Counted from the stretch's first letter, positions 7,282-45,119 are shown. The stretch: 64,000 nucleotides of DNA from Coprobacillus sp. (GCA_021203905.1 JAJQAG010000004.1:65090-129089); one strand, 5' to 3'. Numbers and translations are program-made. The notes: generated by a model not told the origin, from the letters alone.

Positions 7282-7332
7282 GCGTGTATTAACCAAAAAT
7301 TAACCGGATTTTTGATTATTTTGTGGGGTTTT

Positions 7333-7360
7333 TGTCAATTTTTGCGTTTTTCGCTAAAAT
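7333..7360 (+). promoter_or_regulatory. Putative SigA promoter for the island ABC operon (TTGTCA-16-TAAAAT)
   Basis: -35/-10-like hexamers with 16-bp spacing. An alternative TATAAT sits at 7434-7439, nearer the ATG at 7468. Confidence 0.4.
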
Positions 7361-7467
7361 ACCTAACAATACCCCCATTAAAGTCACTTATTTGTTTTTA
7401 TTTTTTCTCTTCACATATGCGCATAAATGTGTGTATAATACGTAAGATACGTGTGAGAGCGTACACT

Positions 7468-9807: not shown

Positions 9808-9812
9808 AAGTT

Positions 9813-11555: not shown

Positions 11556-11557
11556 AT

Positions 11558-11995
11558 ATGAAAAAGTCATCTCTATTCTTGATTGTTATTATCTATATTG
11601 TGTCAATTGTCGCCATTACATTCTTTGGTCAGTCCATTGAGATGGATCAATACAAAGTCTATATGTCTGATATTTGGATTAGCAATGAATCAGAAATTGT
11701 CTCTGGCAGCGATAACATTCGTAATATCAACATTACCTTTAATGATGATGAAGGGTGGGGCGGAATCATCCTTCACTATGAGTTCCTTCCTGAAGATGCG
11801 ACCGATAGTGACGCCGTGAAGTGGTCCTTATATGGTAACACTGGTATCTTAGCGGACACTGGTGAAGAGGTCGTTATTGCGGATATCGATGGGAAGGGAG
11901 AAGTGGTCTTCCATCGTCGAGGAATGGTGACCGCTTACGTGACCACAACCGATGGAAGTAACCTCGTCGATTCTGTGAGAATTACTTGCCGTTAG
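11558..11995 (+). CDS. Small membrane-anchored protein with a Big_2-like (bacterial Ig-like) C-terminal domain
   Basis: N-terminal TM/signal anchor. The C-terminus (…VVIADIDGKGEVVFHRRGMVTAYVTTTDGSNLVDSVRITC) resembles Big_2 domains. Confidence 0.5.
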   Translation: MKKSSLFLIVIIYIVSIVAITFFGQSIEMDQYKVYMSDIWISNESEIVSGSDNIRNINITFNDDEGWGGIILHYEFLPEDATDSDAVKWSLYGNTGILADTGEEVVIADIDGKGEVVFHRRGMVTAYVTTTDGSNLVDSVRITCR

Positions 11996-12028
11996 TGGAC
12001 TTTTTACGGAAAAATACTTAAAATATGA

Positions 12029-12056
12029 ATTGTGCCAAAAACGGCACAATTTTTAT
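12029..12056 (+). terminator. Intrinsic terminator after the island ABC operon
   Basis: ATTGTGCC-aaaaac-GGCACAAT followed by TTTTAT. Confidence 0.75.
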
Positions 12057-12113
12057 AAATTCCGTGTTTTTCAAGTCATTTTTATCAACGAAACGGCGAT
12101 ATTTTTAATTTTT

Positions 12114-12142
12114 TTGGTTTTTCAGTGGTTATTGTGTAGAAT
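12114..12142 (+). promoter_or_regulatory. Putative promoter of lipoprotein paralog 1 (TTGGTT-17-TAGAAT)
   Basis: Hexamers with 17-bp spacing. A good RBS AAGAGG lies 11 nt before the ATG at 12188. Confidence 0.35.
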
Positions 12143-12187
12143 ATAGTTAGTGAGAAGGATATAGGGATGAAGAAAGAGGCATAAGAT

Positions 12188-14842
12188 ATGAAAAAGAGAC
12201 TATTTTTAATGTCATGCATTGCGCTACTATCCGTGGGCTGTGTGACGATGACATCTTGTAAAGGAAAAGATGAAAGAAAGAATGAGTCTGTCAGTGTGGA
12301 GTTATATGGGCTTTATGCCTATTACTATCCAACCGATTCTATTGATTGGGATAGTGTCTATCTCGATGTCACTGTTTACGATAAAAAAGAAGAGATTGAT
12401 CATCTCACTCTCACTAGTGGAGAGTTTGATGTTAGTAAGCAAACTAGTGAGGAGAGCGACTTCGCTTTAAATACCTCTGGTCTTTATACAAATTCCATAA
12501 ATCAAAATACGATTCCGGAAGGGACTTATTCCCTTTCTTATTCTCTTGATTACAACGGAAGGGTCTATAGTGATAGTCTTTTCTCTATCACTGTGGCGAG
12601 CAATTTCTCTGGCATCCTTGAAGCGGAAACCTTCCAGCAACCAGATTCCATTATTAAATTCCTTCAGAATCAACAGAGAGTGGATAGTGAAGATAGTGAG
12701 AGTGAAAGCAATTTCATCGACTATGTCGATGAATATGTGGTTGGAGATGATAATCCCTTTATCTATCGTCCCACACTCGATCTTGTTCCCATTGGAGATA
12801 GCAGCGCTCGTCACTCCTATCCTAATGGTTATCCCGCTATTGTGACGGTAACTTACGACGGAAAAGAATTAGATTTAGATAATAACGAATATGTGACCTT
12901 TGATAGCGCAACCTTTGGTTTCCAGTTCACTAGCGAAGCCATTGGAAAGAGTTTTACTCTTTCTGTCTTTCCAAAAGACTTTAATGCGGACTGGTCTGGT
13001 CTTGCTCTTCAAACCCAGTCATTAACTGTCACTGTTCAAGATGGATACAATGTGTTTAAGGCTCTTGATTTAGGTCGTATGGCCCTTTCTAGTGGCGCGG
13101 ACTACTACATTGATGAAACCAATCACACGAGAACAGATAATAAAGGGAATTACTATGTCCCCTTTAGTAACTATATGTCCGAAGAGAATATTCTCTTTGT
13201 TCAAGATGAAACCACCGGACAAGCTCATTTTGAAAAGATTCGTTACGACGAGACTTGGTATAACTTCCTCGAAAGTCGTGGAGAGACTAATCTCAACGCT
13301 GTCAACGGCATCTTCTTACACGATGACATGGTGATTACGAACAATGATCTTCCTAGTGAATTCATCATTGGAGAAGATGAAGCGAAGTTCTTTGGAGTGG
13401 AATACGACGATATGGTGGGTTCCCTTAGAGATGAAGTCACTATCTATGACCACCAAATGGAAGAAGACTTTACTCTTAATGGTAATCTCTTTGATCTCGA
13501 CGCTAGTCATCTAAAGTGGGCGATGACTCGCCACTTAAACGATGATCCACTAGAGGGAGATGAAAGTGAGAGACAATTGATTTATTACACCGAGAATAAT
13601 ACCTCTTATGATGAAGGTCATAATGTCTTACTCTACGCTGATAACCACATTACCAAGAAAGATGATAGTAAATATCTTAAAGAGGACTTCTTAACCACTC
13701 ACGATGGTGAGAATAAGAAAGTCTATACCTTAAAGAACGTGGAACTCTTTGGTAACCAAGAGAGAAACTGGAATTTTGATCAAGCGAATGAAACTGAGGA
13801 TGCCTCTAAGGCCAGTGGATGTATGACTTGTTTTGAAAGCCGCGCTGGTAGCGCGGTGGTAAATAACGTCATCGTGAAGCACTTCCTTACTTCCTTCTAT
13901 TCTAATTACACTCTCAGTGGAGTGAAATGCTTAAATATCAGTGACTCAAAAATCTATGACTGCTATGGATGCGCTCTTTATGCGAGATACTCCGCAGAAA
14001 ATGTCATCTCTAATTCTGTCTTAAGACGTTTTGGAGGACCCGTTGTCGTCATGATGAGTGGAGAGGGAATCTGTGCTCATAGTGGTTATGATTATTCGAA
14101 AGTCGGATTTGAATTTACCAGTGATGTCGATTGTGAGGCCAACCTCTATGGTGGTGAGTCATGGTTTGATATTTACAATATCAAATCATATATCTCCTAT
14201 CTCAACTGGTTTGATGTTCTCTTCACCGGTGGTAGTCTCCTTGGGATGTTCTCCTTCCCTTCTATGGGTAAGACCATGTTTAATCCTGAGAGAAGCGATG
14301 GAGATTACTTTAATCTCATCGGTGGAGGATTTGATTATCGTGTCTATGGTGGATATCCTATCTATACCTCCCTTTCCTATAATGGAGTGGACTACACTTA
14401 CGACAGCCACTACGGACAAGAATTTAGTTATGTTGAGGATGGTGATCCTGATGATCCCGACAACCCCGATTACACCTACACTGATATCGATGGCTTTGAG
14501 CCCGATACCGAGTGCTTCTCTTACCTTGTGAACTCCTTCATTAATGATTCTAGTATGTCGAGTGTGGATCTCAGTGGTTTCCTCACCTTAACCACTCTCC
14601 CTGTCTTTATGACTAACACTGGAGAAGTCTTTGCCCTTGCTAGTGGCACAAAATTACTTGGACTTCCCCTTGATATGTATCTTGTTGATCTTAAGGCTTA
14701 CTACAATCGTGAGGACGAGTCCTCAAATGTTTTAAATTATAAATTTACTTCTCTTAATCCTGAGGATGACACGGTGTTTATGTATCTTAACATTGCGGGC
14801 ATTGTCTTAACCCTTTGTTTCTCCCTCTACGATTGTGACTAG
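12188..14842 (+). CDS. Large surface lipoprotein, paralog 1 of a 3-member tandem family (possibly beta-helix-type repeats)
   Basis: Signal peptide plus lipobox (LLSVGC). 884 aa. About 75-80% identical to paralog 2. Has a C-terminal hydrophobic tail (YLNIAGIVLTLCFSLY). Confidence 0.85.
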   Translation: MKKRLFLMSCIALLSVGCVTMTSCKGKDERKNESVSVELYGLYAYYYPTDSIDWDSVYLDVTVYDKKEEIDHLTLTSGEFDVSKQTSEESDFALNTSGLYTNSINQNTIPEGTYSLSYSLDYNGRVYSDSLFSITVASNFSGILEAETFQQPDSIIKFLQNQQRVDSEDSESESNFIDYVDEYVVGDDNPFIYRPTLDLVPIGDSSARHSYPNGYPAIVTVTYDGKELDLDNNEYVTFDSATFGFQFTSEAIGKSFTLSVFPKDFNADWSGLALQTQSLTVTVQDGYNVFKALDLGRMALSSGADYYIDETNHTRTDNKGNYYVPFSNYMSEENILFVQDETTGQAHFEKIRYDETWYNFLESRGETNLNAVNGIFLHDDMVITNNDLPSEFIIGEDEAKFFGVEYDDMVGSLRDEVTIYDHQMEEDFTLNGNLFDLDASHLKWAMTRHLNDDPLEGDESERQLIYYTENNTSYDEGHNVLLYADNHITKKDDSKYLKEDFLTTHDGENKKVYTLKNVELFGNQERNWNFDQANETEDASKASGCMTCFESRAGSAVVNNVIVKHFLTSFYSNYTLSGVKCLNISDSKIYDCYGCALYARYSAENVISNSVLRRFGGPVVVMMSGEGICAHSGYDYSKVGFEFTSDVDCEANLYGGESWFDIYNIKSYISYLNWFDVLFTGGSLLGMFSFPSMGKTMFNPERSDGDYFNLIGGGFDYRVYGGYPIYTSLSYNGVDYTYDSHYGQEFSYVEDGDPDDPDNPDYTYTDIDGFEPDTECFSYLVNSFINDSSMSSVDLSGFLTLTTLPVFMTNTGEVFALASGTKLLGLPLDMYLVDLKAYYNREDESSNVLNYKFTSLNPEDDTVFMYLNIAGIVLTLCFSLYDCD

Positions 14843-14881
14843 CTCTTACAAAGACAAATCTCTTTTAAACCAATACGAGAA

Positions 14882-14905
14882 AAGGGAAGAGAAATCTCCC
14901 TTTTT
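14882..14905 (+). terminator. Intrinsic terminator after lipoprotein 1
   Basis: AAGGGA-agagaaatc-TCCCTT followed by TTTTT. Confidence 0.55.
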
Positions 14906-14943
14906 CTTATTATTCGGTTTTACTCTTTTTAGGGAAATAGAGG

Positions 14944-14979
14944 ACATTTGTGGCACAAATGTTCGTTTTTTTTTTTTTT
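14944..14979 (+). terminator. Second hairpin plus T14 tract downstream of lipoprotein 1 (terminator with an unusually long U-tract)
   Basis: ACATTTGTG-g-CACAAATGT palindrome followed by tcg and then 14 consecutive T (14966-14979). Confidence 0.55.
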
Positions 14980-15103
14980 AAAATAAAAAACGCTGAATTA
15001 TTTAAAATTAGTTTATCTTTTAGAAAAAGATATTTATAATAAACGCGATTAGACAAAAGGGGACCCCTACGGGGGTGAATGATGGAAGGAAAAAGCGCAA
15101 AAA

Positions 15104-17746
15104 ATGAAAAGAAGAATGTTTATAATGTCGTGTATCGCTCTGATGTCAGTGGGGTGTGTGACGACAACTTCATGTGAAGAAATAGAAAAAAGATTAAATG
15201 AGTCTCTCAGTGTGGAGTTATATGGACTTAATGCCTATTATTCGCCCACTGATTCAATCGATTGGGAGAGTGTCTATCTCGATGTGACAGTCTTCAACAA
15301 GAAAGAAGAAGTCAATCACTTTACTCTTACTGATGGAGAGTTTGATGTGATTGAGCAAACTAGTGAGGAAAGCGGGTTTGCTCTTGATACCTCTGGTCTC
15401 TACACTAATAGTGTTAATGAAAATACAATTCCGGAAGGGACCTATCCCCTTACCTACTATTTTACCTATAATGAACAAGTCTATAGCGGTAGTCCTTTCT
15501 CTATCGTGGTGGCCTATGACTTCACTGCGGCTTATGAAGTAGTGGCCTTCCAGCAACCAGACACTATTATTAAATTCCTTCAGAATCAACAGAGAGTGGA
15601 TCGTGAAGACGATGTGAGTGAAAGCAATTTCATCGACTATGTCGATGAATATGTGGTTGGGGATGATAATCCTTTTATCTATCGTCCCACCCTCGAACTT
15701 ATTCCCACGGGAGAGGAGGACGCTACTCACCTCTATCCCACTAATTATCCAGTGAATGTCACTGTCACTGATGTTAGTGGAGAAGACGAAGAAGAATTAG
15801 ATCTTGATAATAATGAATATGTGACCTTTGATAGTGCGACCTTTGGTTTCCAATTCACTAGTGAAGCCATTGGAAAGAGTTTTACTCTTTCCGTCTATCC
15901 AAGAGGTTTCAGTCAAGATTTGTTTGGTCTTGCTATTCAAGCCCAGACTTTAACGGTCACTGTTCAAGATGGATATAACGTTTATAAACCTCTTGATTTA
16001 GGTCGTATGGCCCTTTCAAGTGGAAAGGATTACTACATTGATGAGGAAAATCATAGCAGAGTCAATAGTAGGGGATATTACTATGTTCCCTTCTCTAACT
16101 ATGTCACCGAATCAAAAGTTCTCTTTGTTCAAGATGAAGACACCGAGCAAGTCCATTTTGAACGAATTCAATATGACGAGACTTGGTATAACTTCCTTGA
16201 AAGTCGTGGAGAGACTGACTTAACCGCGGTTAACGGCATCTTCTTACACGATGACATGGTGATTACTAATAACGATATTCCTAGTGAATTTGTCATTAGT
16301 GAAGAAGAAGCCAAGTTCTTTGGAGTGGATTACGACGATATGGTGGGCTCTCTTAGAGATGAGGTCGCCATCTACGATCATCAGATGGAAGAGGACTTTA
16401 CCCTTAATGGTAATCTCTTCGCTCTTGATGCGAGCAACCTTAAATGGGCGATGACTCGTCATGGCTATGATGGTTCTGATGATGAATCTGGAAGAGAAAT
16501 AGAATATTATGCTGAGAATAATACTTCTTATGACGAAGGTCATAATGTCCTACTCTATGCGGATAATCACTTTACCCAAGAGGATGATGGTGATTACCTT
16601 AAAGAGGACTTCTTAGCCACTCACGATGGTGAGAATAAGAAGGTCTATACCTTAGAGAATGTCGAGCTCTTTGGTAACCAAGAGAGAAAATGGAATTATG
16701 ATCAAGCGGATGAGAATGAGGATGCCTCTAAGGCCAGTGGTTGTATGACCTGTTTTGAAAGCCGTGCTGGGAGCGCGGTGGTAAATAACGTCATCGTGAA
16801 GCACTTCCTTACTTCCTTCTATGCGTTTTACACTATTGCGGGAGTGACCTGCTTAGATATTAGTGACTCGAAGATCTATGACTGCTATGGAACCGCTTTA
16901 TACGCTCGCTTCTCCGCTGATAACATTATCTCTAACTCCGTCTTAAGACGTTTTGGAGGACCAGTGGTCGTCCTTATTAGTGGTGAAGGCGTCAGCGCTC
17001 ATAGTGGTTATGATTACTCTCGAGCGGGATTTGTATTTACCAGTGATGTCGATTGCGAGGCTAACCTCTATGGTGGTGAGTCATGGTTTGATATTTACAA
17101 TATCAAATCATATATCACTTATCTCAACTGGTTTGATGTTCTCTTTAGCGGTGGCAAACTCCTTGATCTTTACGAATTTAATTCCATGGGTAAGACACTC
17201 TTTAATCCTGAAAGAAGTGATGGAGATTACTTTAATCTCATCGCTGGGGGATTCGACCGTAAGATTAATGGTGGATATCAGATCAATACCTCGATTACCT
17301 ATAATGGAGTGGAGTACACCTATAATAACCACTACGGACAAGAATTCTCTCATACTGGTCAGCAATTCTACTTCACTGACATTGAAGGCTTTGAACCAGA
17401 TACGGAGTGCTTCTCCTATCTTGTGAATAAATTTATTGATGATACAAGTCTCTCATGTGTGGATCTCAGTGGCTATCTTACTTTAGAAACTCTCCCTGTC
17501 TTTATGACTAACACTGGAGAGGTCTTTGCCCTTGCTAGTGGCACACAACTCTTTGGCGTCCCACTAAGTATGTATCTTCTTGATCTTAAGGCTTATTACA
17601 ATCGTGGTGAGGAAGATTCTAGTTCAGCTTCAGACTATAAGTTTACCTCTCTTAATCCTGAGGATGACACGGTGTTTATGTATCTTAATATTGGAGGGAT
17701 CATCTTAACCCTTTGCTTCTCTCTCTACGACACTATTAGTGAATAA
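15104..17746 (+). CDS. Large surface lipoprotein, paralog 2
   Basis: Signal peptide plus lipobox (LMSVGC). 880 aa. Long stretches of near-identical DNA shared with paralog 1. Confidence 0.85.
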   Translation: MKRRMFIMSCIALMSVGCVTTTSCEEIEKRLNESLSVELYGLNAYYSPTDSIDWESVYLDVTVFNKKEEVNHFTLTDGEFDVIEQTSEESGFALDTSGLYTNSVNENTIPEGTYPLTYYFTYNEQVYSGSPFSIVVAYDFTAAYEVVAFQQPDTIIKFLQNQQRVDREDDVSESNFIDYVDEYVVGDDNPFIYRPTLELIPTGEEDATHLYPTNYPVNVTVTDVSGEDEEELDLDNNEYVTFDSATFGFQFTSEAIGKSFTLSVYPRGFSQDLFGLAIQAQTLTVTVQDGYNVYKPLDLGRMALSSGKDYYIDEENHSRVNSRGYYYVPFSNYVTESKVLFVQDEDTEQVHFERIQYDETWYNFLESRGETDLTAVNGIFLHDDMVITNNDIPSEFVISEEEAKFFGVDYDDMVGSLRDEVAIYDHQMEEDFTLNGNLFALDASNLKWAMTRHGYDGSDDESGREIEYYAENNTSYDEGHNVLLYADNHFTQEDDGDYLKEDFLATHDGENKKVYTLENVELFGNQERKWNYDQADENEDASKASGCMTCFESRAGSAVVNNVIVKHFLTSFYAFYTIAGVTCLDISDSKIYDCYGTALYARFSADNIISNSVLRRFGGPVVVLISGEGVSAHSGYDYSRAGFVFTSDVDCEANLYGGESWFDIYNIKSYITYLNWFDVLFSGGKLLDLYEFNSMGKTLFNPERSDGDYFNLIAGGFDRKINGGYQINTSITYNGVEYTYNNHYGQEFSHTGQQFYFTDIEGFEPDTECFSYLVNKFIDDTSLSCVDLSGYLTLETLPVFMTNTGEVFALASGTQLFGVPLSMYLLDLKAYYNRGEEDSSSASDYKFTSLNPEDDTVFMYLNIGGIILTLCFSLYDTISE

Positions 17747-17772
17747 CCTAAGAAATTACTAATGAATACAGA

Positions 17773-17795
17773 AAAGGACCTCGTGGTCCTTTTTT
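17773..17795 (+). terminator. Intrinsic terminator after lipoprotein 2
   Basis: AAAGGACC-tcgt-GGTCCTTT followed by TTTTT. Confidence 0.8.
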
Positions 17796-17925
17796 GGTAG
17801 CGAAAGAAGGAAAAAACGTAAAAAAATATTTACAATACTTTTTTTCTTTATTGAAAGAAAGTGTTAGTTATATAATAACTATGATTGAGTATAGGAAATG
17901 GTATTATAACAAGGAAGTAAGTTAT

Positions 17926-20448
17926 ATGAAAAAGAAAGCCCTTTTATTAGCCACCACCGCAGCATTAGCATTATGCTCCTTCTCCCTCTCTTCATGTAAT
18001 AAAAAGAAAAACAAAGATGTGGAAGAAGAGACTGTTAGTGTGGAAGTCTATGGTTTACAACCATATTATCTACCCACGGATAAGATTGATTGGGATAGTA
18101 TCTATCTAGAAGTGGAAGAGACTTATTACCATCATGGAGAATTTGATGTCACCAGTAAGAGTAAGAGTGAAACGGAATTCACTCTTGATACTTCTGGTCT
18201 CTACACATATACCAGCAATCAAAACACGATTCCTGAAGGGAGTTATCCGATTTCGTATTCCCTCGAATATGAAGGGACAAGCTACAGCGCGAAACTATTT
18301 ACCGTTTACGTGACTTCTAATGTCACCTCTCTCCTTCAAGCGGAATCTTTCTCCCAACCAGAATCAATTATTACCTGGGAGAGAAATCAAACGAGAGTGG
18401 ATACTTCCTCTAGTCAAGATGAGAGTAATTTCATTGAAGGCAAGAGTGAGTACACAGTGGGTTGTGATAATCCCTTTATCTATCGCCCAGTTTTAGAGAT
18501 CAGCGCGAATGACACTAAAAACACCACGGATGTCTATGCCTTCCCAAAGAGCTATGCGGCAAATGTGACTGTCACCCTTGATGGGACGGCGCTTGATGTC
18601 TCAAGTAACGAGTATGTCTCCTTTGATGAGACAGACTTTGGTTTCCAGTTCACTGAAGCGGCTATTGGTAAGACCTTTACCCTCACCATCGCTCCAAGAG
18701 ACTTTACTTCCATTTGGGGAATGTATGTCCTTGAAAGTCAAAGTGTCACGGTGACTGTTCAAAAAGGATGGAATGTCAATAACGCCATCGATCTTGGAAG
18801 AATCAATCTTCTTAGTGATGAGTATAAACCATATATTGACTACTACGAGTACGCAAAACCCAAAGTGAACGAAAAGGAAGTCGCCGGAATCTTCTGGGAC
18901 TCCTCTCGTGGCTACTATAATGAATACAACTATAAGATTTGGGAAAACTTCCTTACTAGTAAAGGAAGAGATGATCTTACTTATACCAGTGCGATATATC
19001 TCCACGATGACATCAATGTCACCATTGATGATATTCCCAGTGAGTTTATCGTCTCTCAAGAAGAGATCAACGCTCAACCAAACCCCAGTCTATATAGCAA
19101 TGATGTCCTTAACTCCGTTAAGGATGGAGTGTATATCTATACTCATTATCTCCAAGGTGAAGACTTTACCCTTGATGGGAATCTCTTCTCCATCCGTTGC
19201 TCCTCTCTTAAGTGGTGCATGACTAGGGTTGATAATGAACAAGGTGATTTTAGATACTACGCGACGAATAAAGCGGACCGCTATAAGATGTGTCACGCGG
19301 CTCTCTTCTCCATTAACGATGTCGCGGATAAGAGTGAAAGTGGACTTCCTAGTGCCCTAACAGAAAGATATAGTGCCACCTTTACTAATATTGAAGCTCA
19401 CGGAAACCAAGAGAGAATTAATCCAGAAGAAGCGACAAGCTATGATAGTCAACTCGCTAGTGGTTGCCTCATCTTTCTTAGAAGTGCTTCCAGTAATACG
19501 AAAGTGACTAATGTTTTAGCGAAGAACTTCCTTCAAGGTTATTATTGCTGCTACTCCGATGATAGCTACTGTGCCTTTGAAGTTGATAAATGTAAAATCT
19601 ACGATTGCTATGGATCTCCTTTCTTTGGTTATGGCAGTAGTAAGAATAAGACCACTAATAGTATTATGTCTCGTTTCGGTGGCCCAATCGTCGTCCTTAA
19701 TAGTGTCTATGGCAATAAATTCCAGCATTGTGGTTGGGAGATAGATGAGTGTGATTATGAATCTCTTCTCATCGGGACAGAAGCGTGGTTTGATATCTTA
19801 GGAATCTCCTCTGTTATTCCTTTCTTTACCGATATTGATAATTGCTTTACAGGAAACGGTAATGTCTTTATCCCTGGTTTTACCTCTAAAGGCTATGGTA
19901 AGTCCCTTAAGAATGAAGATGGCTACTTTGATGTTATAGGTGTCGGTAATGATGCCTCAAGCGGAATGATCGGTGGAGAAGTCGTTGATATCTCGATGAC
20001 TTTCGATGGAGATACTTATTCCTATTCGAGTGATGAAGTTCCTAGTGAACCTGACCCCGAAAACTTTGCTTGGGTCGCTAATGCGTATTATTCAGATTAT
20101 GGAACTCTATATGTCGATGGGGGCTTAATGTGCGAGTTAGCGGGTAATCGTCTCCCCATCTTTATGACGAACACCGGAAAGATCTTTGGTATCCTTCTCT
20201 CAAATAGTAGGACCGCTCTCGTCGATATGGTGGACTTCTATACGAAGTACATTGCTATTGATAATGAGTATTCTAATCGAGATAAGACGGACGCTAACGC
20301 TGAAGAAGCCTTCTGGATGGAGCACTATCCTGAGATGGTGGATATCGAATTTGATGAGGATGATACCTCCGTTTTTGGAATTGATATCACCTCAGCGATG
20401 ACCATTTGTCTCGCCCTAAGACTCTTTGATTATCCCTACGCGGAATAA
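17926..20448 (+). CDS. Large surface lipoprotein, paralog 3, a more divergent family member. The ORF-track start at 17794 reads through the promoter region, and the ATG at 17926 has an AAGGAAG RBS.
   Basis: MKKKALLLATTAALALCSFSLSSC signal/lipobox. Conserved family blocks (VSVEVYGL, NQNTIPEG, NPFIYRP, FGFQFTEAAIGKTFTL, VTVTVQ, LDLGR, LHDD, FTLDGNLF, KIYDCYG, RFGGP.VV). Confidence 0.8.
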   Translation: MKKKALLLATTAALALCSFSLSSCNKKKNKDVEEETVSVEVYGLQPYYLPTDKIDWDSIYLEVEETYYHHGEFDVTSKSKSETEFTLDTSGLYTYTSNQNTIPEGSYPISYSLEYEGTSYSAKLFTVYVTSNVTSLLQAESFSQPESIITWERNQTRVDTSSSQDESNFIEGKSEYTVGCDNPFIYRPVLEISANDTKNTTDVYAFPKSYAANVTVTLDGTALDVSSNEYVSFDETDFGFQFTEAAIGKTFTLTIAPRDFTSIWGMYVLESQSVTVTVQKGWNVNNAIDLGRINLLSDEYKPYIDYYEYAKPKVNEKEVAGIFWDSSRGYYNEYNYKIWENFLTSKGRDDLTYTSAIYLHDDINVTIDDIPSEFIVSQEEINAQPNPSLYSNDVLNSVKDGVYIYTHYLQGEDFTLDGNLFSIRCSSLKWCMTRVDNEQGDFRYYATNKADRYKMCHAALFSINDVADKSESGLPSALTERYSATFTNIEAHGNQERINPEEATSYDSQLASGCLIFLRSASSNTKVTNVLAKNFLQGYYCCYSDDSYCAFEVDKCKIYDCYGSPFFGYGSSKNKTTNSIMSRFGGPIVVLNSVYGNKFQHCGWEIDECDYESLLIGTEAWFDILGISSVIPFFTDIDNCFTGNGNVFIPGFTSKGYGKSLKNEDGYFDVIGVGNDASSGMIGGEVVDISMTFDGDTYSYSSDEVPSEPDPENFAWVANAYYSDYGTLYVDGGLMCELAGNRLPIFMTNTGKIFGILLSNSRTALVDMVDFYTKYIAIDNEYSNRDKTDANAEEAFWMEHYPEMVDIEFDEDDTSVFGIDITSAMTICLALRLFDYPYAE

Positions 20449-20477: not shown

Positions 20478-20501
20478 GACTAGACGATGTCTAGTCTTTT
20501 T
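20478..20501 (+). terminator. Intrinsic terminator after lipoprotein 3
   Basis: GACTAGAC-gat-GTCTAGTC followed by TTTTT. Confidence 0.8.
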
Positions 20502-20599: not shown

Positions 20600-21841
20600 A
20601 TGTATTTCGTTAAACAAGAAACCACCTATGACTGTCTCTTTACCTGCTTAAAGATTCTTTTAGCCTCTTGTTATCGAGAGAAGAAGTATCTCTATCTAGC
20701 GAGAAAAAAGGATGAAGCTTATTCCTTTTATGATGTCAAAGAGATTGGACAAGAGTATGGTGTCGAGCTTGTTGGTTATCAAACAGAAGAGAAAGATCTC
20801 TCTTCTTTTAAAGATCAAACCATTATCCTCTCCATCAATAAAGACGGCCGGCGTCACGCGGTCATCTTACATAAAGTGGGAAAGAAGAGATGTCAAATTA
20901 TTGACCCAAGTATAGGAAGGCTACGGGTCAGGACATCCTTACTTTTAGAGTGGTGGGACAGGACCTTTTTACTGCTTGAAAATAAATCCCTTCTCGAAAA
21001 TTCATCACTTCAACATCGACATCGTTTTACCCCAAATGACTGTTCCACCCTCTCTCTTAAAGGTCGTGGCCTCGACCTTTATCTCTATAAGTTTCTCTCT
21101 TCTCTTTTTATCATCCTCGGTCTCTTTTTTGTCACCTCGACCTATTTTCTTCTCCCTATCTGTTTCTTCGCTCTCTTCGCCCTTTTTGAAGTTCTCTATC
21201 AAGTAGTGTTAATTAAGAAGATGAAGGAAGTCGATAATCTCTTTTTCCTTTCCCTGAAGCACCCCCTACACACAAAAGAAGAATTAAAGACTTATGAGGA
21301 GTATAAAAGTCAACTCATCTCTCTTCCCGTGATGAGTATGTATGCGATGCTTGTCGCCCTGTTTCTCACCTTTCTATTAGCCTATAACTCTTTATATAAT
21401 CTCATCTTTGTCGGTGTGGTTTTTCTTTTCGCCCTCGTTAAAAGACTCTTTCTTTCTCACCAAACGGAGAGAAAGAAGAGAGAGATTGATAATAAGGAAG
21501 ATGATCTTTTTAAGCAAGAGAGCATCGAAGAGTTTAAAAAGAGTCTCTCTTCCCTTCACACTGAAGTTTATTCCTATACCTATCAAGGCTCCATTTATAA
21601 CTATATCGAATTATTCTTTCTCATCCTCGCGATTATCTTATCGATGTATCTCCAACATATTCTTTCACTTTCTTATGTCTTACTTTACTTTGCCACTTCT
21701 TACTACCTAAAGGAGAACATCGATAAGATAACTTCCCTCCCCACTAGTCTTAGTGACTACACTCTCGTCAAGAGCAAATACTCCACATTGATCTATCACA
21801 ATCAACATGACACGAAAAAAGAAGAAGTTGTGAGTGGATAG
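20600..21841 (+). CDS. C39 (bacteriocin-processing, double-glycine leader) cysteine peptidase domain fused to a 4-6-TM membrane domain, with no ABC ATPase domain (orphan or truncated PCAT-like protein)
   Basis: N-terminus matches the C39 catalytic motifs: Q-x5-DC (VKQETTYDC), HAVILHKV…IIDPS and EWW, aligning with ComA/CvaB peptidase domains (QVDQMDCG; HYYVV…IADP; EEW). Hydrophobic helices follow. The gene ends 48 nt before the next gene. Confidence 0.8.
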   Translation: MYFVKQETTYDCLFTCLKILLASCYREKKYLYLARKKDEAYSFYDVKEIGQEYGVELVGYQTEEKDLSSFKDQTIILSINKDGRRHAVILHKVGKKRCQIIDPSIGRLRVRTSLLLEWWDRTFLLLENKSLLENSSLQHRHRFTPNDCSTLSLKGRGLDLYLYKFLSSLFIILGLFFVTSTYFLLPICFFALFALFEVLYQVVLIKKMKEVDNLFFLSLKHPLHTKEELKTYEEYKSQLISLPVMSMYAMLVALFLTFLLAYNSLYNLIFVGVVFLFALVKRLFLSHQTERKKREIDNKEDDLFKQESIEEFKKSLSSLHTEVYSYTYQGSIYNYIELFFLILAIILSMYLQHILSLSYVLLYFATSYYLKENIDKITSLPTSLSDYTLVKSKYSTLIYHNQHDTKKEEVVSG

Positions 21842-21937
21842 ATTTTAACGAGAACTATTCCCTAATTTCTTTCCCTCACATGTCCCTAAATGCTCTCTTA
21901 TCTTTACTTAGAGAGAGAAACTGCTATAATAAAGGCA

Positions 21938-23524
21938 ATGAAAAAACATGTTATTACCTTAGCCTTAACGATTGTGGTTTCTTTAAGTGCACTTTCTCTT
22001 TCAGGTTGTGATTCATCCTCCTCTTATGAAAGAGTGGATTGCGGGAAATACGGAACAATCTATCAAATTTTCCCCTATTCTTTTGCGGATAGTAATGGAG
22101 ATGGGATTGGAGATATCAAAGGGATTAGCGATAAGCTCGATTATATTGCGGATCTCGGTTTTACAGGAATTTGGATTAATCCTGTTCAACCCTCGCCCAC
22201 CTATCACAAATACGACACCACTGATTACTATTCTATCGATCCTGACTTTGGAACGATTGATGATTATAAAGCGATGGTGGAAAAGGCTCACAGCCTTGAT
22301 TTAACTGTATATCTTGACCTTGTTATTAATCACACCTCCACCCAACACGATTGGTTTAAGCAAAGCGCGAATGCTCATGTGAGTGGAGATACATCAAATG
22401 CCTACTATAACTACTATTATTGGAACCAAGGTGGGAGTGGAGATAATGGAACCTATTCTCGATATGGTTCCTCCGATTGGTACTATAGCCACTATAGCGG
22501 GGATACCCAGATGCCACGACTTAACCTTCAATGGGTTCTAGATGATCCTGAATGCGCTCTGGCTAAAGAACTAGAAAATATCATGGAGTTTTGGCTCGTT
22601 GAGTGTGATGTTGATGGCTTTAGACTCGATGCGGTGACCTCCTATTTTCCCTCTGGTGACACGACCGCTTTCCTCACTTGGTTAGTAGATACCGCTAGAA
22701 GTTATAAAGCTGATTGCTATATCGTTGGGGAAGGTAGCTGGGGAACAAGTAGTAGTAACTCTTCTTATCTAGAGAGCGGGATTGATTCCTTCTTCTGCTT
22801 TGATGACGCAAAGACCAGCGGTTATATTTTAAAAACTTTATCTAATGGGAATGCGAGACTCCTTGCTAGTGGTATTAATAACAATCTCTCCGTCTTTGAT
22901 AATGTGAACAATATTCCCTCTCCCTTTATTGTCAATCACGATTGTAATGGTCGTTTAGTCTCGATGGCCAATGCTCGTAAAGAGACACAAAATCTCAAGT
23001 TTGCGTACGCAACGTTACAGATGTATACCGGTTCCACCTATCATTACTATGGTGATGAAATCGGAATGGCCTGTGCTTCAACCACCAAAGACGAAGATGC
23101 CAGAGCCCCATTCTACTGGGGAGATAGCTACACTCCTGACTATGTTAGTAATAGCACATCTATCTCTCAGGATGAGGCCTATCCTTATGGAAGCGCAAAG
23201 AAACTCTTAAGTAAAAAAGACTCCTCCGTGAACTATGTGAGAAAAGTTAATCAGGTGAGAAATAGTCACCCCGCGATCTTTAGTGGCGGTATTGAAGAGA
23301 TCTATGAGAGCGCTGATCGCACTTTCTCCGCCAATGTGAAGACTTGTGATAGTGAATCTCTTCTCATCCTTCTCAATGCTTCTAAAACTGATAGTTATAC
23401 TTACACAAATGATACAAGCTATACCTCGATTATCGCGGATCTATCCACCATCAGTGGAACGAAACTTCAGAGTCAAGGAAGCGAGTTAATCGTTCCGCCT
23501 CTCTCTATTTGCATCCTTGGTTAA
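21938..23524 (+). CDS. GH13 alpha-amylase-family lipoprotein (alpha-glucosidase/amylase-like). The likely start is the ATG at 21938, since the ORF opens at 21890.
   Basis: Lipobox LSLSGC. GH13 conserved regions DLVINHTS, GFRLDAV, IVGEGSW and FIVNHD. Confidence 0.85.
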   Translation: MKKHVITLALTIVVSLSALSLSGCDSSSSYERVDCGKYGTIYQIFPYSFADSNGDGIGDIKGISDKLDYIADLGFTGIWINPVQPSPTYHKYDTTDYYSIDPDFGTIDDYKAMVEKAHSLDLTVYLDLVINHTSTQHDWFKQSANAHVSGDTSNAYYNYYYWNQGGSGDNGTYSRYGSSDWYYSHYSGDTQMPRLNLQWVLDDPECALAKELENIMEFWLVECDVDGFRLDAVTSYFPSGDTTAFLTWLVDTARSYKADCYIVGEGSWGTSSSNSSYLESGIDSFFCFDDAKTSGYILKTLSNGNARLLASGINNNLSVFDNVNNIPSPFIVNHDCNGRLVSMANARKETQNLKFAYATLQMYTGSTYHYYGDEIGMACASTTKDEDARAPFYWGDSYTPDYVSNSTSISQDEAYPYGSAKKLLSKKDSSVNYVRKVNQVRNSHPAIFSGGIEEIYESADRTFSANVKTCDSESLLILLNASKTDSYTYTNDTSYTSIIADLSTISGTKLQSQGSELIVPPLSICILG

Positions 23525-23608: not shown

Positions 23609-24070
23609 ATGAAAATTCTATTTTCTAGTTTTTCTTCTAACTACAAAGAATATGAAGCTCTTTTTCTTTCTCTTCTAGAAAAGACTACTTCGATGCTTGA
23701 TTATAATTTTTCCCCTATTGTCAGTGTGGATCTTGTGAAGGAAGAGGTCATTCACACTCTTAATAAACAATACCGGGGAATAGATAGACCCACTGATGTT
23801 CTCTCTTTTGCTTATCTAGAGAATGAAGAAGATAAAGCCGCGATTTTTGCCTCTAGTGAAGAGGTGGAACTAGGGGATATTATTATTTGTTTACCCATTG
23901 CTCGTAAACAAGCTATAGCCTATAAACATAGTGAAAAGAGAGAACTTTGTTTTCTCTTCGTTCATGGATTATTACACCTCTTTGGATATGATCATCAGAA
24001 TAGTAATGATGAGAGAGAGATGTTCTCCCTCCAAGATAAAATCTTAAAAGAAAGCGGGATCGACAGATGA
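23609..24070 (+). CDS. ybeY: rRNA maturation endoribonuclease YbeY
   Basis: HGLLHLFGYDH metal-binding motif. 153 aa. Followed by cdd-era-recO as in Bacillus. Confidence 0.9.
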   Translation: MKILFSSFSSNYKEYEALFLSLLEKTTSMLDYNFSPIVSVDLVKEEVIHTLNKQYRGIDRPTDVLSFAYLENEEDKAAIFASSEEVELGDIIICLPIARKQAIAYKHSEKRELCFLFVHGLLHLFGYDHQNSNDEREMFSLQDKILKESGIDR

Positions 24071-24465
24071 AAGAAGAATTAATTAATAAAGCTAAAGAAG
24101 CGATGAATCTCTCTTATTCTCCATATTCTCATTTTAAAGTTGGAGCGGCGCTTGAAACCACAGGTGGAGAGATATATGTGGGCACAAACATTGAGAATGC
24201 CTCTTATCCCCTATGTATGTGCGCGGAGCGTAACGCTCTTTATAATGCCTATTGTCATGGAGTGAAGAAAGAGGATATTACCACTTTAGTGGTAATTGGA
24301 GAGACAGATGAGCCCATCTCTCCTTGCGGGGCGTGTCGTCAAGTGATGAGTGAACTCCTTTCTAAAGATTGTGTCATCGTTTTATGTAACACTAAAGGAG
24401 AGGTAAAAGAAACCCGTATTGATGAACTCCTTCCCTCTTCCTTTAAAGGAGAAGATTTAAAGTAA
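24067..24465 (+). CDS. cdd: Cytidine deaminase
   Basis: CAERNA and PCGACRQ zinc-binding motifs. 132 aa. Confidence 0.92.
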   Translation: MKEELINKAKEAMNLSYSPYSHFKVGAALETTGGEIYVGTNIENASYPLCMCAERNALYNAYCHGVKKEDITTLVVIGETDEPISPCGACRQVMSELLSKDCVIVLCNTKGEVKETRIDELLPSSFKGEDLK

Positions 24466-24467
24466 GG

Positions 24468-25355
24468 ATGAAATCTGGGTTTGTCTTAATCTTAGGTCGA
24501 CCAAATGTGGGTAAGTCCACAATTTTAAATCACCTCCTTCACGAGAAGGTCTCTATTGTTAGTGAGAAACCCCAAACGACAAGAAACAATATCAGAGGCA
24601 TATACCGAGATGAAGAGAGTGAGATTGTCTTTATTGACACTCCCGGAGTGCAACAAGAAACCCATCAACAATTAGGAGATGTCATGAATGACATGGTCTA
24701 CTCTCACATTAAAGATGGAGATGTTATCCTCCTTATTGTTGATAGTGGGAAGAAGTATGGCTTAGGGGATGATTATATAATCGAAAAGATTAAGGATAAA
24801 CACCGCCCCATCATCATTGTCTTTAATAAAATCGATACCGTAAGGATTGATCAAATCAGTGAACTCAAAGAGAAATATAAAGAAGCCCTACCCGAAGCGA
24901 AGCAGATAGAGTGTGTAGCGACAGAAGGCTTTGGTCTTGATGAAATTATTAGGGCTCTTAAAGACGCTCTTCCTGAAGGTCCTGCTTACTACGGAGGGAA
25001 TGAGGTCACAGATAAAGACGAAGTCTTTCAGATTAAAGAAATCATTAGGGAGAAAGCTCTTCATTACTTAAAAGAAGAAGTTCCCCACGCTGTGGCAATC
25101 TATATCCGTAATATTGAGTGGGAATCCACTCCCCTAGAGATTGACGCCACAATCTACGTTGAGAAAGAGAGTCAAAAGCCCATTGTCATCGGAGAGAATG
25201 GACAGATGATCAAAAAGATTGGGAGCGCAGCGAGAAAAGACATCGAGAGACTTCTTAAGAAACATGTCCAACTCAACTTAGTGGCGAGAGTGGATAAGGA
25301 TTGGCGGTCTAATCAAAAGAGCATCAAGAAATACGGATATACGAAAGAGGGATAG
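24468..25355 (+). CDS. era: GTPase Era
   Basis: G1 motif GRPNVGKST, DTPG, NKID, and a C-terminal KH domain. Confidence 0.95.
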   Translation: MKSGFVLILGRPNVGKSTILNHLLHEKVSIVSEKPQTTRNNIRGIYRDEESEIVFIDTPGVQQETHQQLGDVMNDMVYSHIKDGDVILLIVDSGKKYGLGDDYIIEKIKDKHRPIIIVFNKIDTVRIDQISELKEKYKEALPEAKQIECVATEGFGLDEIIRALKDALPEGPAYYGGNEVTDKDEVFQIKEIIREKALHYLKEEVPHAVAIYIRNIEWESTPLEIDATIYVEKESQKPIVIGENGQMIKKIGSAARKDIERLLKKHVQLNLVARVDKDWRSNQKSIKKYGYTKEG

Positions 25356-25356
25356 G

Positions 25357-26085
25357 ATGGATCTTATAATTCTTTCTATTAACCACTACAAAGAAAAAGA
25401 TGCGGTCATTACCGCGATTAGTGAGAAGGAGTGCTTCTCTTTTTTAGCGAAGGGTGTCTTTAATGAAAGGAATATAGAGAACAACGTCTTAAACACTCCG
25501 TGTTTAGAGATTGATGCTTCCTTTTTAGATAATAAACAATATAAGCATCCCGTCTTAAAAGAATTTAGCATTATTCACTCTCCTCTAGGAGGAGAGTATT
25601 CTCTCTCCACTTTACTCACAATTTCTTTCTTAGGAGAGGTGAGCTCAAAGATTCTTCCCCCAGAAGAGATGCATCTCTTGTTTCTTCCTCTTAAGGAGTG
25701 TTTATCTCTTTTAAGTGGAGAAGTAGATTATGACCTACTCTCTCTTATCTATCTATTTATCGCTCTTTCAAAGAGTGGTTATTGCTTTGAGGTTAATCAA
25801 TGTGTGAACTGTGGAAGTAAAGAAGGAATCTATGACTTCTCATTTGACGAAGGAGGACTACTTTGTAAAGATTGTATCTCTAAAAGAGATAAAAGAGAAT
25901 TTGAGAAGGATGAAATCTTAGTTATCCGCTACATCGTGAATCACCTCTCTAACATCACTGAAACTGTCACTCACTCTTATTTTGAAAAAGAAACTCTCAC
26001 CAAGATCCTTAATCGGGCTGTGATCTTTGCGAGTGATTCCCTTGGAGTAACTATTAATAGTTTTAAGATGATGAAGAAGGCTTAA
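25357..26085 (+). CDS. recO: DNA repair protein RecO
   Basis: Conserved position after era. Zinc-finger CVNCGS…CKDC. 242 aa. Confidence 0.85.
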   Translation: MDLIILSINHYKEKDAVITAISEKECFSFLAKGVFNERNIENNVLNTPCLEIDASFLDNKQYKHPVLKEFSIIHSPLGGEYSLSTLLTISFLGEVSSKILPPEEMHLLFLPLKECLSLLSGEVDYDLLSLIYLFIALSKSGYCFEVNQCVNCGSKEGIYDFSFDEGGLLCKDCISKRDKREFEKDEILVIRYIVNHLSNITETVTHSYFEKETLTKILNRAVIFASDSLGVTINSFKMMKKA

Positions 26086-44774: not shown

Positions 44775-44893
44775 TTAGACATCTGGTAATTAGCTTTTAT
44801 AGATTCTCATGGTGACATGGGGATTTTCTTTTAGACATTTTCCTCACTAGTGGAGTGGGATCTCTCTTAATCCTCAACTGCCACTCTAATACT

Positions 44894-44902
44894 TGATATA
44901 AT
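44894..44902 (+). promoter_or_regulatory. Orphan extended -10 promoter element TGaTATAAT in the yqeK-permease intergenic region
   Basis: A perfect TGnTATAAT with no ORF downstream before the terminator at 45057-45093. Confidence 0.45.
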
Positions 44903-45056
44903 AAACTTCGCATAATTTCCATTATGTAAACCAAATACACGCAAAAGCCTTACAGGGTAAGGACTTTAAGTGTTTTGGTTCTATTTATATATATTTAATA
45001 TAGAATCATCTTTAAGGGAGTTATCCACCGTTTGCACAGGCTTATATCTACTAAAA

Positions 45057-45093
45057 AACTACTAGCACTATTCCTTCTAGTAGTTCTTTTTTC
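45057..45093. terminator. Bidirectional intrinsic terminator
   Basis: AAAAAA-AACTACTAG-cactattcctt-CTAGTAGTT-CTTTTTTC. Confidence 0.7.
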
Positions 45094-45119
45094 TTTTATT
45101 TCTCTCTCTATTTATGATT

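What the first reader, a model, noticed from the sequence alone, without database searches (positions are those of the whole stretch)
20600..21841. Orphan C39 double-glycine peptidase fused to a membrane domain without an ATPase (split or truncated PCAT?)
The first ~130 aa align motif by motif with bacteriocin-processing C39 peptidase domains such as ComA and CvaB. VKQETTYDC matches QVDQMDCG, with Gln and Cys at the same spacing. RHAVILHKVGKKRCQIIDPSIG matches HYYVV…IHIADPDPG. EWWDRTFLL matches EEWTGVTLF. The catalytic Cys/His/Asp triad appears intact. About 280 aa with 4-6 hydrophobic helices follow, and then the gene ends. No nucleotide-binding domain is present, and the next gene starts 48 nt later. 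The only ABC ATPase in the neighbourhood is the unusual fusion at 7468-9807, on the far side of the lipoprotein array. Two explanations are possible. One is a decaying PCAT remnant. The other is a functional standalone leader peptidase whose substrates are unknown, since no obvious GG-leader peptide genes are visible nearby.
Basis: partly seen in the sequence, partly recalled or inferred. Interest (0 to 1): 0.7.

Follow-up and report, generated by a model that had tools for sequence, protein, structure and literature searches.

The report
ATPase-less relative of peptide-cleaving ABC exporters
This gene encodes a leader-cutting cysteine protease joined to the six-helix membrane part of an ABC peptide exporter with no ATP motor, and it is a conserved gene in the same housekeeping position in at least 70 gut Bacilli species, which suggests, but does not show, that it works without ATP.

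Summary
ORF 20600-21841 (+) encodes 413 aa with a genuine Peptidase_C39 domain (Pfam E 5.8e-14). Six long membrane helices follow and there is no nucleotide-binding domain (NBD). "Decaying remnant" is rejected.

- **Family size:** an all-against-library HMMER search finds 239 clusters at E<1e-10, and nearly all of the 150 listed are about 390-405 aa and match full length.
- **Conserved position:** 72 species genomes carry intact 371-415 aa copies. In 60 of 67 they lie 14-96 nt upstream of ybeY, within dnaJ…(rpsU)-[C39-TM]-ybeY-cdd-era-recO-glyS-dnaG-sigA.
- **Active site:** Gln6, Cys12, His86 and Asp102 are invariant in those 72 species.
- **Selection:** dN/dS is 0.21.
- **Partners and substrates:** no NBD gene and no double-glycine-leader gene lies nearby in any locus. 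The loops that would dock an NBD are the least conserved parts.

Best reading: a PCAT derivative that lost its motor. It is a membrane-bound, cytoplasm-facing double-glycine peptidase, possibly a secondary or passive peptide exporter. Substrate and energy source remain unknown.

The parts
20600..21841 (+). C39-TM gene (413 aa): C39 peptidase plus a six-helix ABC-exporter-like membrane domain, no NBD
   Evidence: ORF. Pfam C39. 100% identical to NCBI 'MAG: cysteine peptidase family C39 domain-containing protein [Coprobacillus sp.]'. AlphaFold pLDDT 92.5. PCAT1 is the best structural match.
20600..20989 (+). Cytoplasmic C39 (double-glycine-type) cysteine peptidase domain, residues 1-130
20615..20617 (+). 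Gln6 codon (oxyanion-hole Gln)
   Evidence: 72/72 species and 132/133 family sequences.
20633..20635 (+). Cys12 codon (catalytic nucleophile)
   Evidence: 72/72 and 133/133.
20855..20857 (+). His86 codon (catalytic His)
   Evidence: 72/72 and 132/133.
20903..20905 (+). Asp102 codon (catalytic Asp, DP.xG motif)
   Evidence: 72/72 and 131/133.
20990..21040 (+). Variable linker, residues 131-147, low-confidence and gap-rich
   Evidence: pLDDT 53-54. Gap fraction 0.39-0.56 across orthologues.
21041..21808 (+). Six-helix membrane domain (residues 148-403) with a type IV ABC-exporter fold, shortened, with coil loops where coupling helices would be
21188..21190 (+). Glu197 codon: acidic residue in the hydrophobic stretch of helix 2, conserved in the family
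   Evidence: 59/72 species and 110/133 family sequences. PCAT1 has Gln at the aligned position (alignment). A role in proton coupling is pure inference.
20478..20496 (+). Terminator-like hairpin ending the upstream lipoprotein gene, so the C39-TM gene starts its own transcript here
   Evidence: Sequence.
23609..26085 (+). ybeY-cdd-era-recO: the conserved downstream partners of the family gene. They are separated from it in this window by an inserted amylase gene.
   Evidence: Synteny in about 70 loci. The gap from the family gene to ybeY is 14-96 nt in 60 of 67 loci.
21890..23524 (+). Alpha-amylase lipoprotein gene, a lineage-specific insertion between C39-TM and ybeY (not part of the system)
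   Evidence: Pfam Alpha-amylase E 2.2e-74. Present only in the window and L001-L003.
7312..20448 (+). Inserted block (odd ABC fusion, 580-aa and 145-aa membrane proteins, three paralogous lipoproteins of about 880 aa) between dnaJ and C39-TM (not part of the system)
   Evidence: Absent in L004-L006 and in the distant loci, where dnaJ or rpsU precedes the gene.

Best explanation
The gene encodes a working, membrane-embedded double-glycine-type cysteine endopeptidase. It descends from a peptidase-containing ABC transporter (PCAT) that lost its ATPase in the ancestor of a clade of small-genome gut Bacilli. From the MAG names this clade is probably GTDB order RFN20 and relatives.

Shown:
- The C39 domain is intact, with an invariant Gln/Cys/His/Asp.
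- All six helices of the type IV exporter membrane domain are kept.
- The modelled C39 domain sits against the membrane domain as in substrate-loading PCAT1.
- No NBD is fused or encoded nearby.
- The gene is under purifying selection in a fixed slot directly upstream of ybeY.

Inferred:
- The protein forms a homodimer like PCAT1.
- The cytoplasmic C39 domain binds an amphipathic leader ending in GG, GA or GS on a peptide or small protein encoded elsewhere in the genome. It cleaves the leader while the cargo sits in the cavity of the membrane domain.
- The cargo is then released across or into the membrane without ATP. This could happen by thermally driven alternating access down the cargo's own gradient, or by proton coupling as in SbmA/BacA and NBD-less LmrA.
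- Glu197 in helix 2, and the conserved Asp212, Lys236 and Glu300 on the cytoplasmic side, are candidate coupling or gating residues.

A more modest version of the same idea is that the membrane domain only activates and positions the peptidase, as it does in PCAT1 and NukT, and that export is left to another system.
For: - **C39 domain and active site:**
- **Family size and uniform length:** 379 clusters at E<1e-3 and 239 at E<1e-10. Nearly all of the 150 listed are about 390-405 aa and match full length. There are 72 intact species copies of 371-415 aa.
- **Synteny:** fixed in about 70 loci and tight spacing to ybeY.
- **Selection:** dN/dS 0.21 overall, 0.23 for C39 and 0.17 for the membrane domain. 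The membrane part is at least as constrained as the protease, which argues for more than an anchor.
- **No NBD docking surface:** the loops where coupling helices would contact an NBD (residues 219-225 and 304-308) are coil in the model. They fall in the least conserved blocks (0.28) and carry indels.
- **No NBD gene nearby:** none in the window or in the flanks of the loci.
- **Precedents from papers:** SbmA/BacA has the ABC-exporter fold, no NBD and no coupling helices, and is proton-driven. LmrA without its NBD is energised by the proton gradient (PMC8442886, PMC13316013). The membrane domain enhances C39 activity in PCAT1 and NukT (PMC6363468, PMC10885120).
Against: - No substrate was found. 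No GG-leader ORF lies in the 64 kb window or in about 1.1 Mb of related loci.
- Nothing here measures transport, energy coupling or oligomeric state.
- Glu197 is conserved in only 82-83% of sequences (Gln, Ser or Asn in the rest), so an obligatory proton site is doubtful.
- Asp212, Lys236 and Glu300 align to similar (Asp, Lys or Arg, Asp) residues in PCAT1, so they may be ancestral structural residues and not new coupling sites.
- The rest of each genome could not be searched, so an orphan NBD or a full-length ABC partner elsewhere cannot be excluded.
- Sequence-level homology of the membrane domain to ABC_membrane is weak. Pfam PF00664 is hit by 0 of 20 members, and hhalign to one full PCAT aligned only the C39 part. 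The fold assignment therefore rests mainly on the AlphaFold model.
Confidence: 0.5

Rival explanations
1. Split PCAT. The protein is the peptidase-permease half of an ABC exporter whose ATPase is a separate polypeptide encoded elsewhere in the genome. Alternatively it heterodimerises with a full-length ABC half-transporter.
For: The membrane domain keeps cytoplasmic helix extensions of about 13-25 residues beyond the membrane. Helix 6 continues about 25 residues into the cytoplasm, where an NBD would normally follow. Only 64 kb of this genome and about 16 kb around each orthologue could be inspected.
Against: No NBD gene is adjacent in any of about 70 loci. The next gene is ybeY at 14-96 nt. 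The would-be coupling loops are coil, poorly conserved and indel-prone, as in SbmA, where this was taken as proof that no NBD docks (PMC8442886). From general knowledge, type IV exporters almost always have the NBD fused. The only ABC ATPase in the window is fused to its own unrelated membrane domain of about 11 helices and is absent from relatives.
Confidence: 0.15
2. Membrane-anchored processing or regulatory protease with no transport role. The C39 domain cleaves a cytoplasmic or membrane protein for maturation, quality control or signalling. The old exporter membrane domain now serves only as scaffold, activator or sensor.
For: The gene sits in a housekeeping string (rpsU, ybeY, era, recO) and not in a bacteriocin or RiPP cluster. 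It has no adjacent substrate, immunity or modification genes. The membrane domain is known to activate the peptidase in PCAT1 and NukT (PMC6363468).
Against: All six helices and the overall exporter fold have been kept, and the membrane domain has a lower dN/dS than the protease. A simple anchor would need one helix. The same gene string in Bacillus subtilis also holds unrelated membrane proteins (pgpH, dgkA; general knowledge), so the context says little about function.
Confidence: 0.2
3. Peptide importer with built-in processing. Like SbmA, the NBD-less membrane domain imports peptides, and the cytoplasmic C39 domain cleaves them on arrival for nutrition or signal sensing.
Confidence: 0.07
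4. Decaying remnant of a PCAT (non-functional truncated gene).
For: Absence of the NBD. Two MAG copies look truncated (L054 233 aa, L079 93 aa), though these may be assembly or frameshift artefacts.
Against: There are 72 intact copies of uniform length across species at 22-77% identity, with invariant catalytic residues, dN/dS 0.21 and fixed synteny. No NBD-coding remnant fits in the 14-96 nt before ybeY.
Confidence: 0.02

Closest known systems
PCAT/AMS transporters (PCAT1 of Clostridium thermocellum, ComA, LahT, NukT)
   Different: There is no nucleotide-binding domain. The membrane domain is about 25% shorter and has coil loops in place of coupling helices. Pfam ABC_membrane is not detectable. 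The gene lies in a housekeeping string and not next to leader-peptide, modification or immunity genes.
NCBIfam NF045998, 'Mbov_0121 family peptidase domain-containing ABC transporter' (mycoplasmas)
   Same: It is the full-length PCAT family that most members match (18 of 20, best E 5.5e-15). For the window protein the match runs from the C39 domain into the membrane domain (residues 42-374 against profile positions 42-405). Mycoplasmatales are reported as the sister group of RFN20 (PMC10868615).
   Different: Scores of about 27 bits are far below the 500-bit family cut-off. That family is about 673 positions long and includes an ATPase. No function is known for it either (one search found only passing mentions).
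SbmA/BacA (SLiPT fold) and NBD-less LmrA
   Different: No sequence relationship is detectable. SbmA has an extra TM0 pair and no peptidase, is an importer, and has a 'glutamate ladder'. Here only one conserved acidic residue lies in a hydrophobic helix stretch (Glu197, about 82%). The NBD loss is therefore independent.
C39-like domains (CLD) of type 1 secretion ABC transporters (HlyB)
   Different: CLDs lack the catalytic Cys and are not proteases (PMC6363468). Here Cys12 is invariant. HlyB also has an NBD.
Stand-alone C39 peptidases (FapD, FilB, excised LahT150)
   Same: C39 domain without an ATPase. There are weak NCBIfam hits to FapD and FilB.
   Different: Those proteins have no six-helix exporter domain, and FapD and FilB act in extracytoplasmic fibre or pilus maturation.

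Membership tests
Peptidase C39 (bacteriocin-processing, double-glycine) family | Sequence match to the C39 profile above the curated threshold | tested here: met
   PF03412 52.5 bits against a cut-off of 22, covering profile positions 3-131 of 133. 20 of 20 family members hit it.
Peptidase C39 (bacteriocin-processing, double-glycine) family | Catalytic Cys and His, plus Asp and the oxyanion Gln, at the canonical positions | tested here: met
   Gln6, Cys12, His86 and Asp102 align to the PCAT1 and ComA sites. They are invariant in 72 species, and Cys is 133/133.
Peptidase C39 (bacteriocin-processing, double-glycine) family | Cleaves after a GG/GA/GS motif of an N-terminal leader | not testable with these tools
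   No substrate was identified. No GG-leader ORF lies in the window or loci. This needs a biochemical assay.
PCAT / AMS ABC transporter | N-terminal active C39 domain | tested here: met
PCAT / AMS ABC transporter | Six-helix type IV exporter membrane domain (Pfam ABC_membrane) | tested here: inconclusive
PCAT / AMS ABC transporter | C-terminal nucleotide-binding domain (Walker A/B, ABC signature) | tested here: not met
   The protein ends after helix 6. There is no ABC_tran hit. All 72 orthologues are 371-415 aa, with ybeY 14-96 nt downstream in 60 of 67.
PCAT / AMS ABC transporter | Genomic association with leader-peptide substrate genes | tested here: not met
   None in the window or in about 80 related loci.
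NCBIfam NF045998 (Mbov_0121 family) | Score at or above the curated cut-off (500 bits) over the full 673-position model | tested here: not met
   27.3 bits for the window protein. The best family member reaches E 5.5e-15.
SLiPT (SbmA/BacA) secondary peptide transporters | ABC-exporter-like membrane domain with no NBD and no coupling helices | tested here: met
SLiPT (SbmA/BacA) secondary peptide transporters | Sequence membership (Pfam SbmA_BacA) and the N-terminal TM0 helix pair | tested here: not met
   No such Pfam hit. The N-terminus is a C39 domain and not TM0.
SLiPT (SbmA/BacA) secondary peptide transporters | Proton-driven transport through a ladder of conserved glutamates | not testable with these tools
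   Only Glu197 is a conserved acidic residue within a hydrophobic helix stretch, at 82-83%. Energy coupling needs proteoliposome assays.
C39-like domain (CLD) transporters of type 1 secretion | Catalytic Cys replaced, so no protease activity | tested here: not met
   Cys12 is invariant.

The most novel reading that the evidence does not exclude
A whole bacterial clade has turned a peptide-processing ABC exporter into a motor-less machine. A C39-plus-membrane-domain dimer would cleave a double-glycine leader and move the cargo across the membrane with no ATP, either proton-coupled or passive. This would be a second, independent ABC-to-secondary-transporter transition after SbmA/BacA and the first on the export and processing side. 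It would be kept as a core gene next to ybeY because it matures a still unknown, lineage-wide peptide or protein, for example a surface or signalling factor of these reportedly wall-deficient gut Bacilli.
Probability: 0.3. Interest if true: 0.8.

Novelty: new variant of a known kind. Interest (0 to 1): 0.62.

Why it matters
PCATs are the textbook case of proteolysis coupled to ATP-driven export. A large, conserved family that keeps the protease and the full translocation domain but has no ATPase raises a direct question. Either the membrane domain alone can carry out, or be re-energised for, peptide export, or its essential role is to activate the protease.

The family gives ABC-transporter researchers a natural 'NBD-deleted' PCAT to test against the SbmA and LmrA-MD precedents. 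It also flags an unknown, probably important, processed substrate in uncultured small-genome gut Bacilli found in ruminant, horse, chicken and human gut metagenomes.

For annotation, 'cysteine peptidase family C39 domain-containing protein' hides a distinct family that deserves its own model.

Tried and rejected
- **GG-leader substrates:** regex scans of all ORFs of at least 25 aa in the window, and of ATG-start ORFs only in 84 loci, found only chance hits inside housekeeping genes. The small conserved ORF upstream in most loci turned out to be rpsU (S21), not a precursor peptide.
- **Detached NBD:** a Walker A plus signature scan and Pfam annotation of most of the window's other ORFs found only the 7468-9807 ABC. 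That gene has its own unrelated membrane domain and is missing from relatives.
- **Link to the lipoprotein array:** rejected, because the block is a lineage-specific insertion.
- **Defence system:** no PADLOC hit for the C39-TM protein.
- **RNA elements:** no Rfam family at gathering threshold anywhere in the window.
- **Single-sequence search of PDB sequences:** only noise. The family profile was needed.
- **Word-indexed homologue search with the family profile:** almost nothing new.
- **hhalign to a single full-length PCAT (P0154):** aligned only the C39 domain.
- **AFDB50 fold search:** the library was unavailable.
- **First genome scan with the 133-sequence alignment:** failed for lack of a conserved stretch. 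It was repeated with 20 sequences.
- **Literature:** searches for an NBD-less PCAT family found none. The library is incomplete, so this is absence of evidence only.

Full report
**1. The observation**

ORF 20600-21841 (+) encodes 413 aa. An AGAGGA ribosome-binding site precedes it, and a terminator-like hairpin at 20478-20496 closes the upstream lipoprotein gene.

Residues 2-129 match Pfam Peptidase_C39 over the whole model (E 5.8e-14, 52.5 bits against a cut-off of 22).

A hydropathy scan shows three pairs of hydrophobic segments after residue 158. There is no ABC_tran hit. The next ORF is an alpha-amylase lipoprotein.

The only ABC ATPase motif in the 64 kb window is at 9046, in the 7312/7468-9807 gene. 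Pfam annotation of 20 further ORFs, which covers most but not all of the rest of the window, found only housekeeping genes.

**2. A family, not a remnant**

The protein is identical to an NCBI entry named 'MAG: cysteine peptidase family C39 domain-containing protein [Coprobacillus sp.]'.

An exhaustive HMMER search of 1.84 billion cluster representatives gave 379 hits at E<1e-3 and 239 at E<1e-10. Nearly all of the 150 listed are about 390-405 aa and align end to end at 23-44% identity.

In a 133-sequence alignment Cys12 is invariant. Gln6, Asp11, Lys18, His86, Asp102, Pro103, Gly106, Asp212, Lys236, Asn263 and Glu300 are at least 90% conserved.

A scan of one genome per GTDB species found 83 loci. 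Of these, 72 carry complete ORFs, 71 of which are 371-415 aa. The exception is a 723-aa Bacteroidota PCAT. In the 71 family orthologues plus the window copy, Gln6, Asp11, Cys12, Lys18, His86 and Asp102 are 100% conserved.

Against its 77%-identical orthologue (L001), dN/dS is 0.21. It is 0.23 for the C39 part and 0.17 for the membrane part. The neighbouring ybeY, era, recO, amylase and lipoprotein genes give 0.05-0.11. The gene therefore evolves faster than core housekeeping genes but is clearly under purifying selection, and the membrane part is at least as constrained as the protease.

**3. Genomic context**

In essentially every locus with enough flank, the gene lies in the string hrcA-grpE-dnaK-dnaJ-…-[C39-TM]-ybeY-cdd-era-recO-glyS-dnaG-sigA. 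The distance to ybeY is 14-96 nt in 60 of 67 loci.

Upstream there are two arrangements. Either dnaJ comes directly before the gene, as in the closest relatives L004-L006. Or the order is dnaJ, a zinc-ribbon protein, rsmE, a protein of about 265 aa, mtaB, deoC, rpsU. These names are my reading of the N-terminal sequences and of the Pfam marks. From my own knowledge, this is the Bacillus subtilis dnaJ…rpsU…phoH-pgpH-ybeY-dgkA-cdd-era-recO arrangement, with the C39-TM gene in the phoH/pgpH slot.

In the window and in L001-L003, two lineage-specific insertions flank the gene. One is the 13 kb block at 7312-20448 (ABC fusion, 580-aa and 145-aa membrane proteins, three paralogous lipoproteins). The other is the amylase gene. 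Other lineages carry different insertions at the same two junctions.

The lipoprotein array and the odd ABC are therefore not partners of this gene. No locus has an adjacent NBD gene, leader-peptide gene, or modification or immunity gene.

The MAG names (Coprobacillus sp., Firmicutes bacterium CAG:449, Candidatus Onthovivens, 'Bacilli bacterium' from rumen, horse and chicken) suggest the GTDB order RFN20 and relatives. That assignment rests on names and my own knowledge, and was not tested. According to PMC10868615, RFN20 is sister to Mycoplasmatales, and its families CAG-826 and CAG-288 are predicted to lack peptidoglycan.

**4. Structure**

AlphaFold2 with the 133-sequence alignment gives mean pLDDT 92.5 and pTM 0.89. 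The model has a C39 domain (residues 1-128), a low-confidence linker (about 131-147) and six long helices: 148-179, 184-218, 226-263, 265-303, 309-352 and 357-403.

- Foldseek against the PDB ranks PCAT1 chains first (E 3.5e-12 to 1e-9, TMq 0.53-0.63, about 470 columns). HlyB, TM287/288, TAP and MsbA follow.

At the sequence level, the family profile matches PCAT1 at E 2.8e-18, with the alignment running through residue 301, the end of helix 4. 18 of 20 members weakly match the mycoplasma PCAT family NF045998, and for the window protein the match extends into the membrane domain.

However, no member hits Pfam ABC_membrane, and hhalign to one full PCAT aligned only the C39 part. The membrane domain is therefore a strongly diverged and shortened (about 250 against about 320 residues) type IV exporter domain.

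The charge distribution of the loops (K/R-rich loops after helices 2 and 4 and at both ends) places the C39 domain and both long loops in the cytoplasm, as in PCATs.

**5. Is an ATPase expected to dock?**

In type IV exporters, short coupling helices at the tips of the two cytoplasmic loops engage the NBD. Here those tips (219-225 and 304-308) are modelled as coil. They fall in the least conserved 10-residue blocks of the protein (0.28) and carry the main indels of the membrane domain.

This is the argument used for SbmA, which has the ABC-exporter fold, lacks coupling helices and an NBD, and is driven by the proton gradient. The same paper notes that LmrA stripped of its NBD can be proton-energised (PMC8442886; see also PMC13316013).

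The family has one conserved acidic residue within a hydrophobic helix stretch, Glu197 in helix 2 (59/72 and 110/133), where PCAT1 has Gln. The nearly invariant Asp212, Lys236 and Glu300 on the cytoplasmic helix extensions align to similar (Asp, Lys or Arg, Asp) residues in PCAT1. They are probably ancestral structural residues.

**6. Interpretation**

*Shown:*
- An intact, conserved C39 active site.
- A complete exporter-type membrane domain.
- No fused or neighbouring NBD.
- No neighbouring substrate gene.
- Fixed position in a housekeeping gene string.
- Purifying selection.

*Inferred:*
- The protein is a homodimeric, cytoplasm-facing double-glycine peptidase that still uses its membrane domain.
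- At the least, the membrane domain activates and positions the protease, as documented for PCAT1 and NukT (PMC6363468, PMC10885120).
- At the most, it is an ATP-independent conduit, proton-coupled or passive, for the cleaved cargo.

I put about 0.5 on this family of explanations. Within it I put about 0.3 on real ATP-independent transport.

The rivals, in order of confidence, are:
- A protease-only regulatory or maturation role (0.2).
- A split PCAT with a distant NBD or a full-length partner (0.15).
- An SbmA-like importer with processing (0.07).
- A decaying remnant (0.02).

**7. Comparison and novelty**

The protein works most like a PCAT and is evidently derived from one. It fails the defining ABC feature (the NBD), so it should not be filed as an ABC transporter.

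It shares the 'exporter fold without motor' principle with SbmA/BacA. It is not a sequence member of that family and lacks its TM0 helices, so the loss of the NBD is independent.

It is not a C39-like (inactive) domain protein, because the Cys is invariant.

No Pfam or NCBIfam model describes the family, and NCBI's name is generic. My literature searches found no description of an NBD-less PCAT family. The paper library is incomplete, so this is only absence of evidence.

I rate it a new variant of a known kind, of moderate-to-high interest. The anatomy and conservation are solid. The mechanism and the substrate are open.

Noticed in passing
window 44905-44932 (intergenic 44775-45119): Candidate dif site and replication terminus. 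ACTTCGCATAATTTCCATTATGTAAACC matches 21 of 28 positions of the B. subtilis dif sequence as I recall it, and the ATTATGTAAAC arm is exact. It lies where GC skew changes sign (cumulative maximum at about 44 kb) and gene orientation flips from + to -. A XerC/D-like tyrosine recombinase gene lies at 48139-49020 (-). A search with at most 3 mismatches missed the site; I found it by eye.
   Followed up: partly
window 7312/7468-9807, 9813-11555, 11558-11995: Unusual ABC. A membrane domain of about 500 aa and about 11 helices, with no Pfam match, is fused to an ABC_tran NBD whose signature motif reads YSHGM and not LSGGQ. A 580-aa polytopic protein and a 145-aa single-pass protein follow, both with no Pfam match. 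The NBD gives only generic ATPase hits in PADLOC. The block is absent from relatives L004-L006.
   Followed up: partly
window 12188-14842, 15104-17746, 17794/17926-20448: Three tandem paralogous lipoproteins of about 880 aa (lipobox ...VGC or ...SSC). One has a weak Beta_helix hit, and each has a hydrophobic C-terminal segment (...YLNI[AG]GI[VI]LTLCFSLYD). L001-L003 carry three such genes of 879, 961 and 839 aa.
   Followed up: no
L005 5050-7047(-); L026 9254-10534; L037/L053 9249-12817; L073 9128-14817: The junction between the C39-TM gene and ybeY repeatedly holds lineage-specific insertions. These are lipoprotein genes in L005, L026 and L073, and a four-gene block in L037 and L053 that looks to me like nickel-pincer cofactor (larBCE-like) genes from its N-termini. 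The junctions behave like an insertion hot spot.
   Followed up: no
L054 341-1042; L079 301-582: Two MAGs carry apparently truncated copies of the family gene (233 aa and 93 aa, each ending in a stop). These may be pseudogenes or assembly errors.
   Followed up: no
L073 6984-7919; L074 7035-7958; L078 7022-7951: In a few loci a gene of about 310 aa directly precedes the C39-TM gene. From its N-terminus it looks to me like sporulation protein YqfD, which fits the B. subtilis yqfD-phoH-pgpH-ybeY order. I did not test it against any profile.
   Followed up: no
loci L022, L029, L038, L050, L062 (record titles): Several bins labelled Gemmiger, Oscillospiraceae, Coriobacteriaceae, Bacteroidaceae or Lachnospiraceae carry the same Bacilli-type synteny as all the other loci. 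Their taxonomic labels are probably wrong.
   Followed up: no
window 1-64000: No Rfam family reaches its gathering score anywhere in the 64 kb window.
   Followed up: yes
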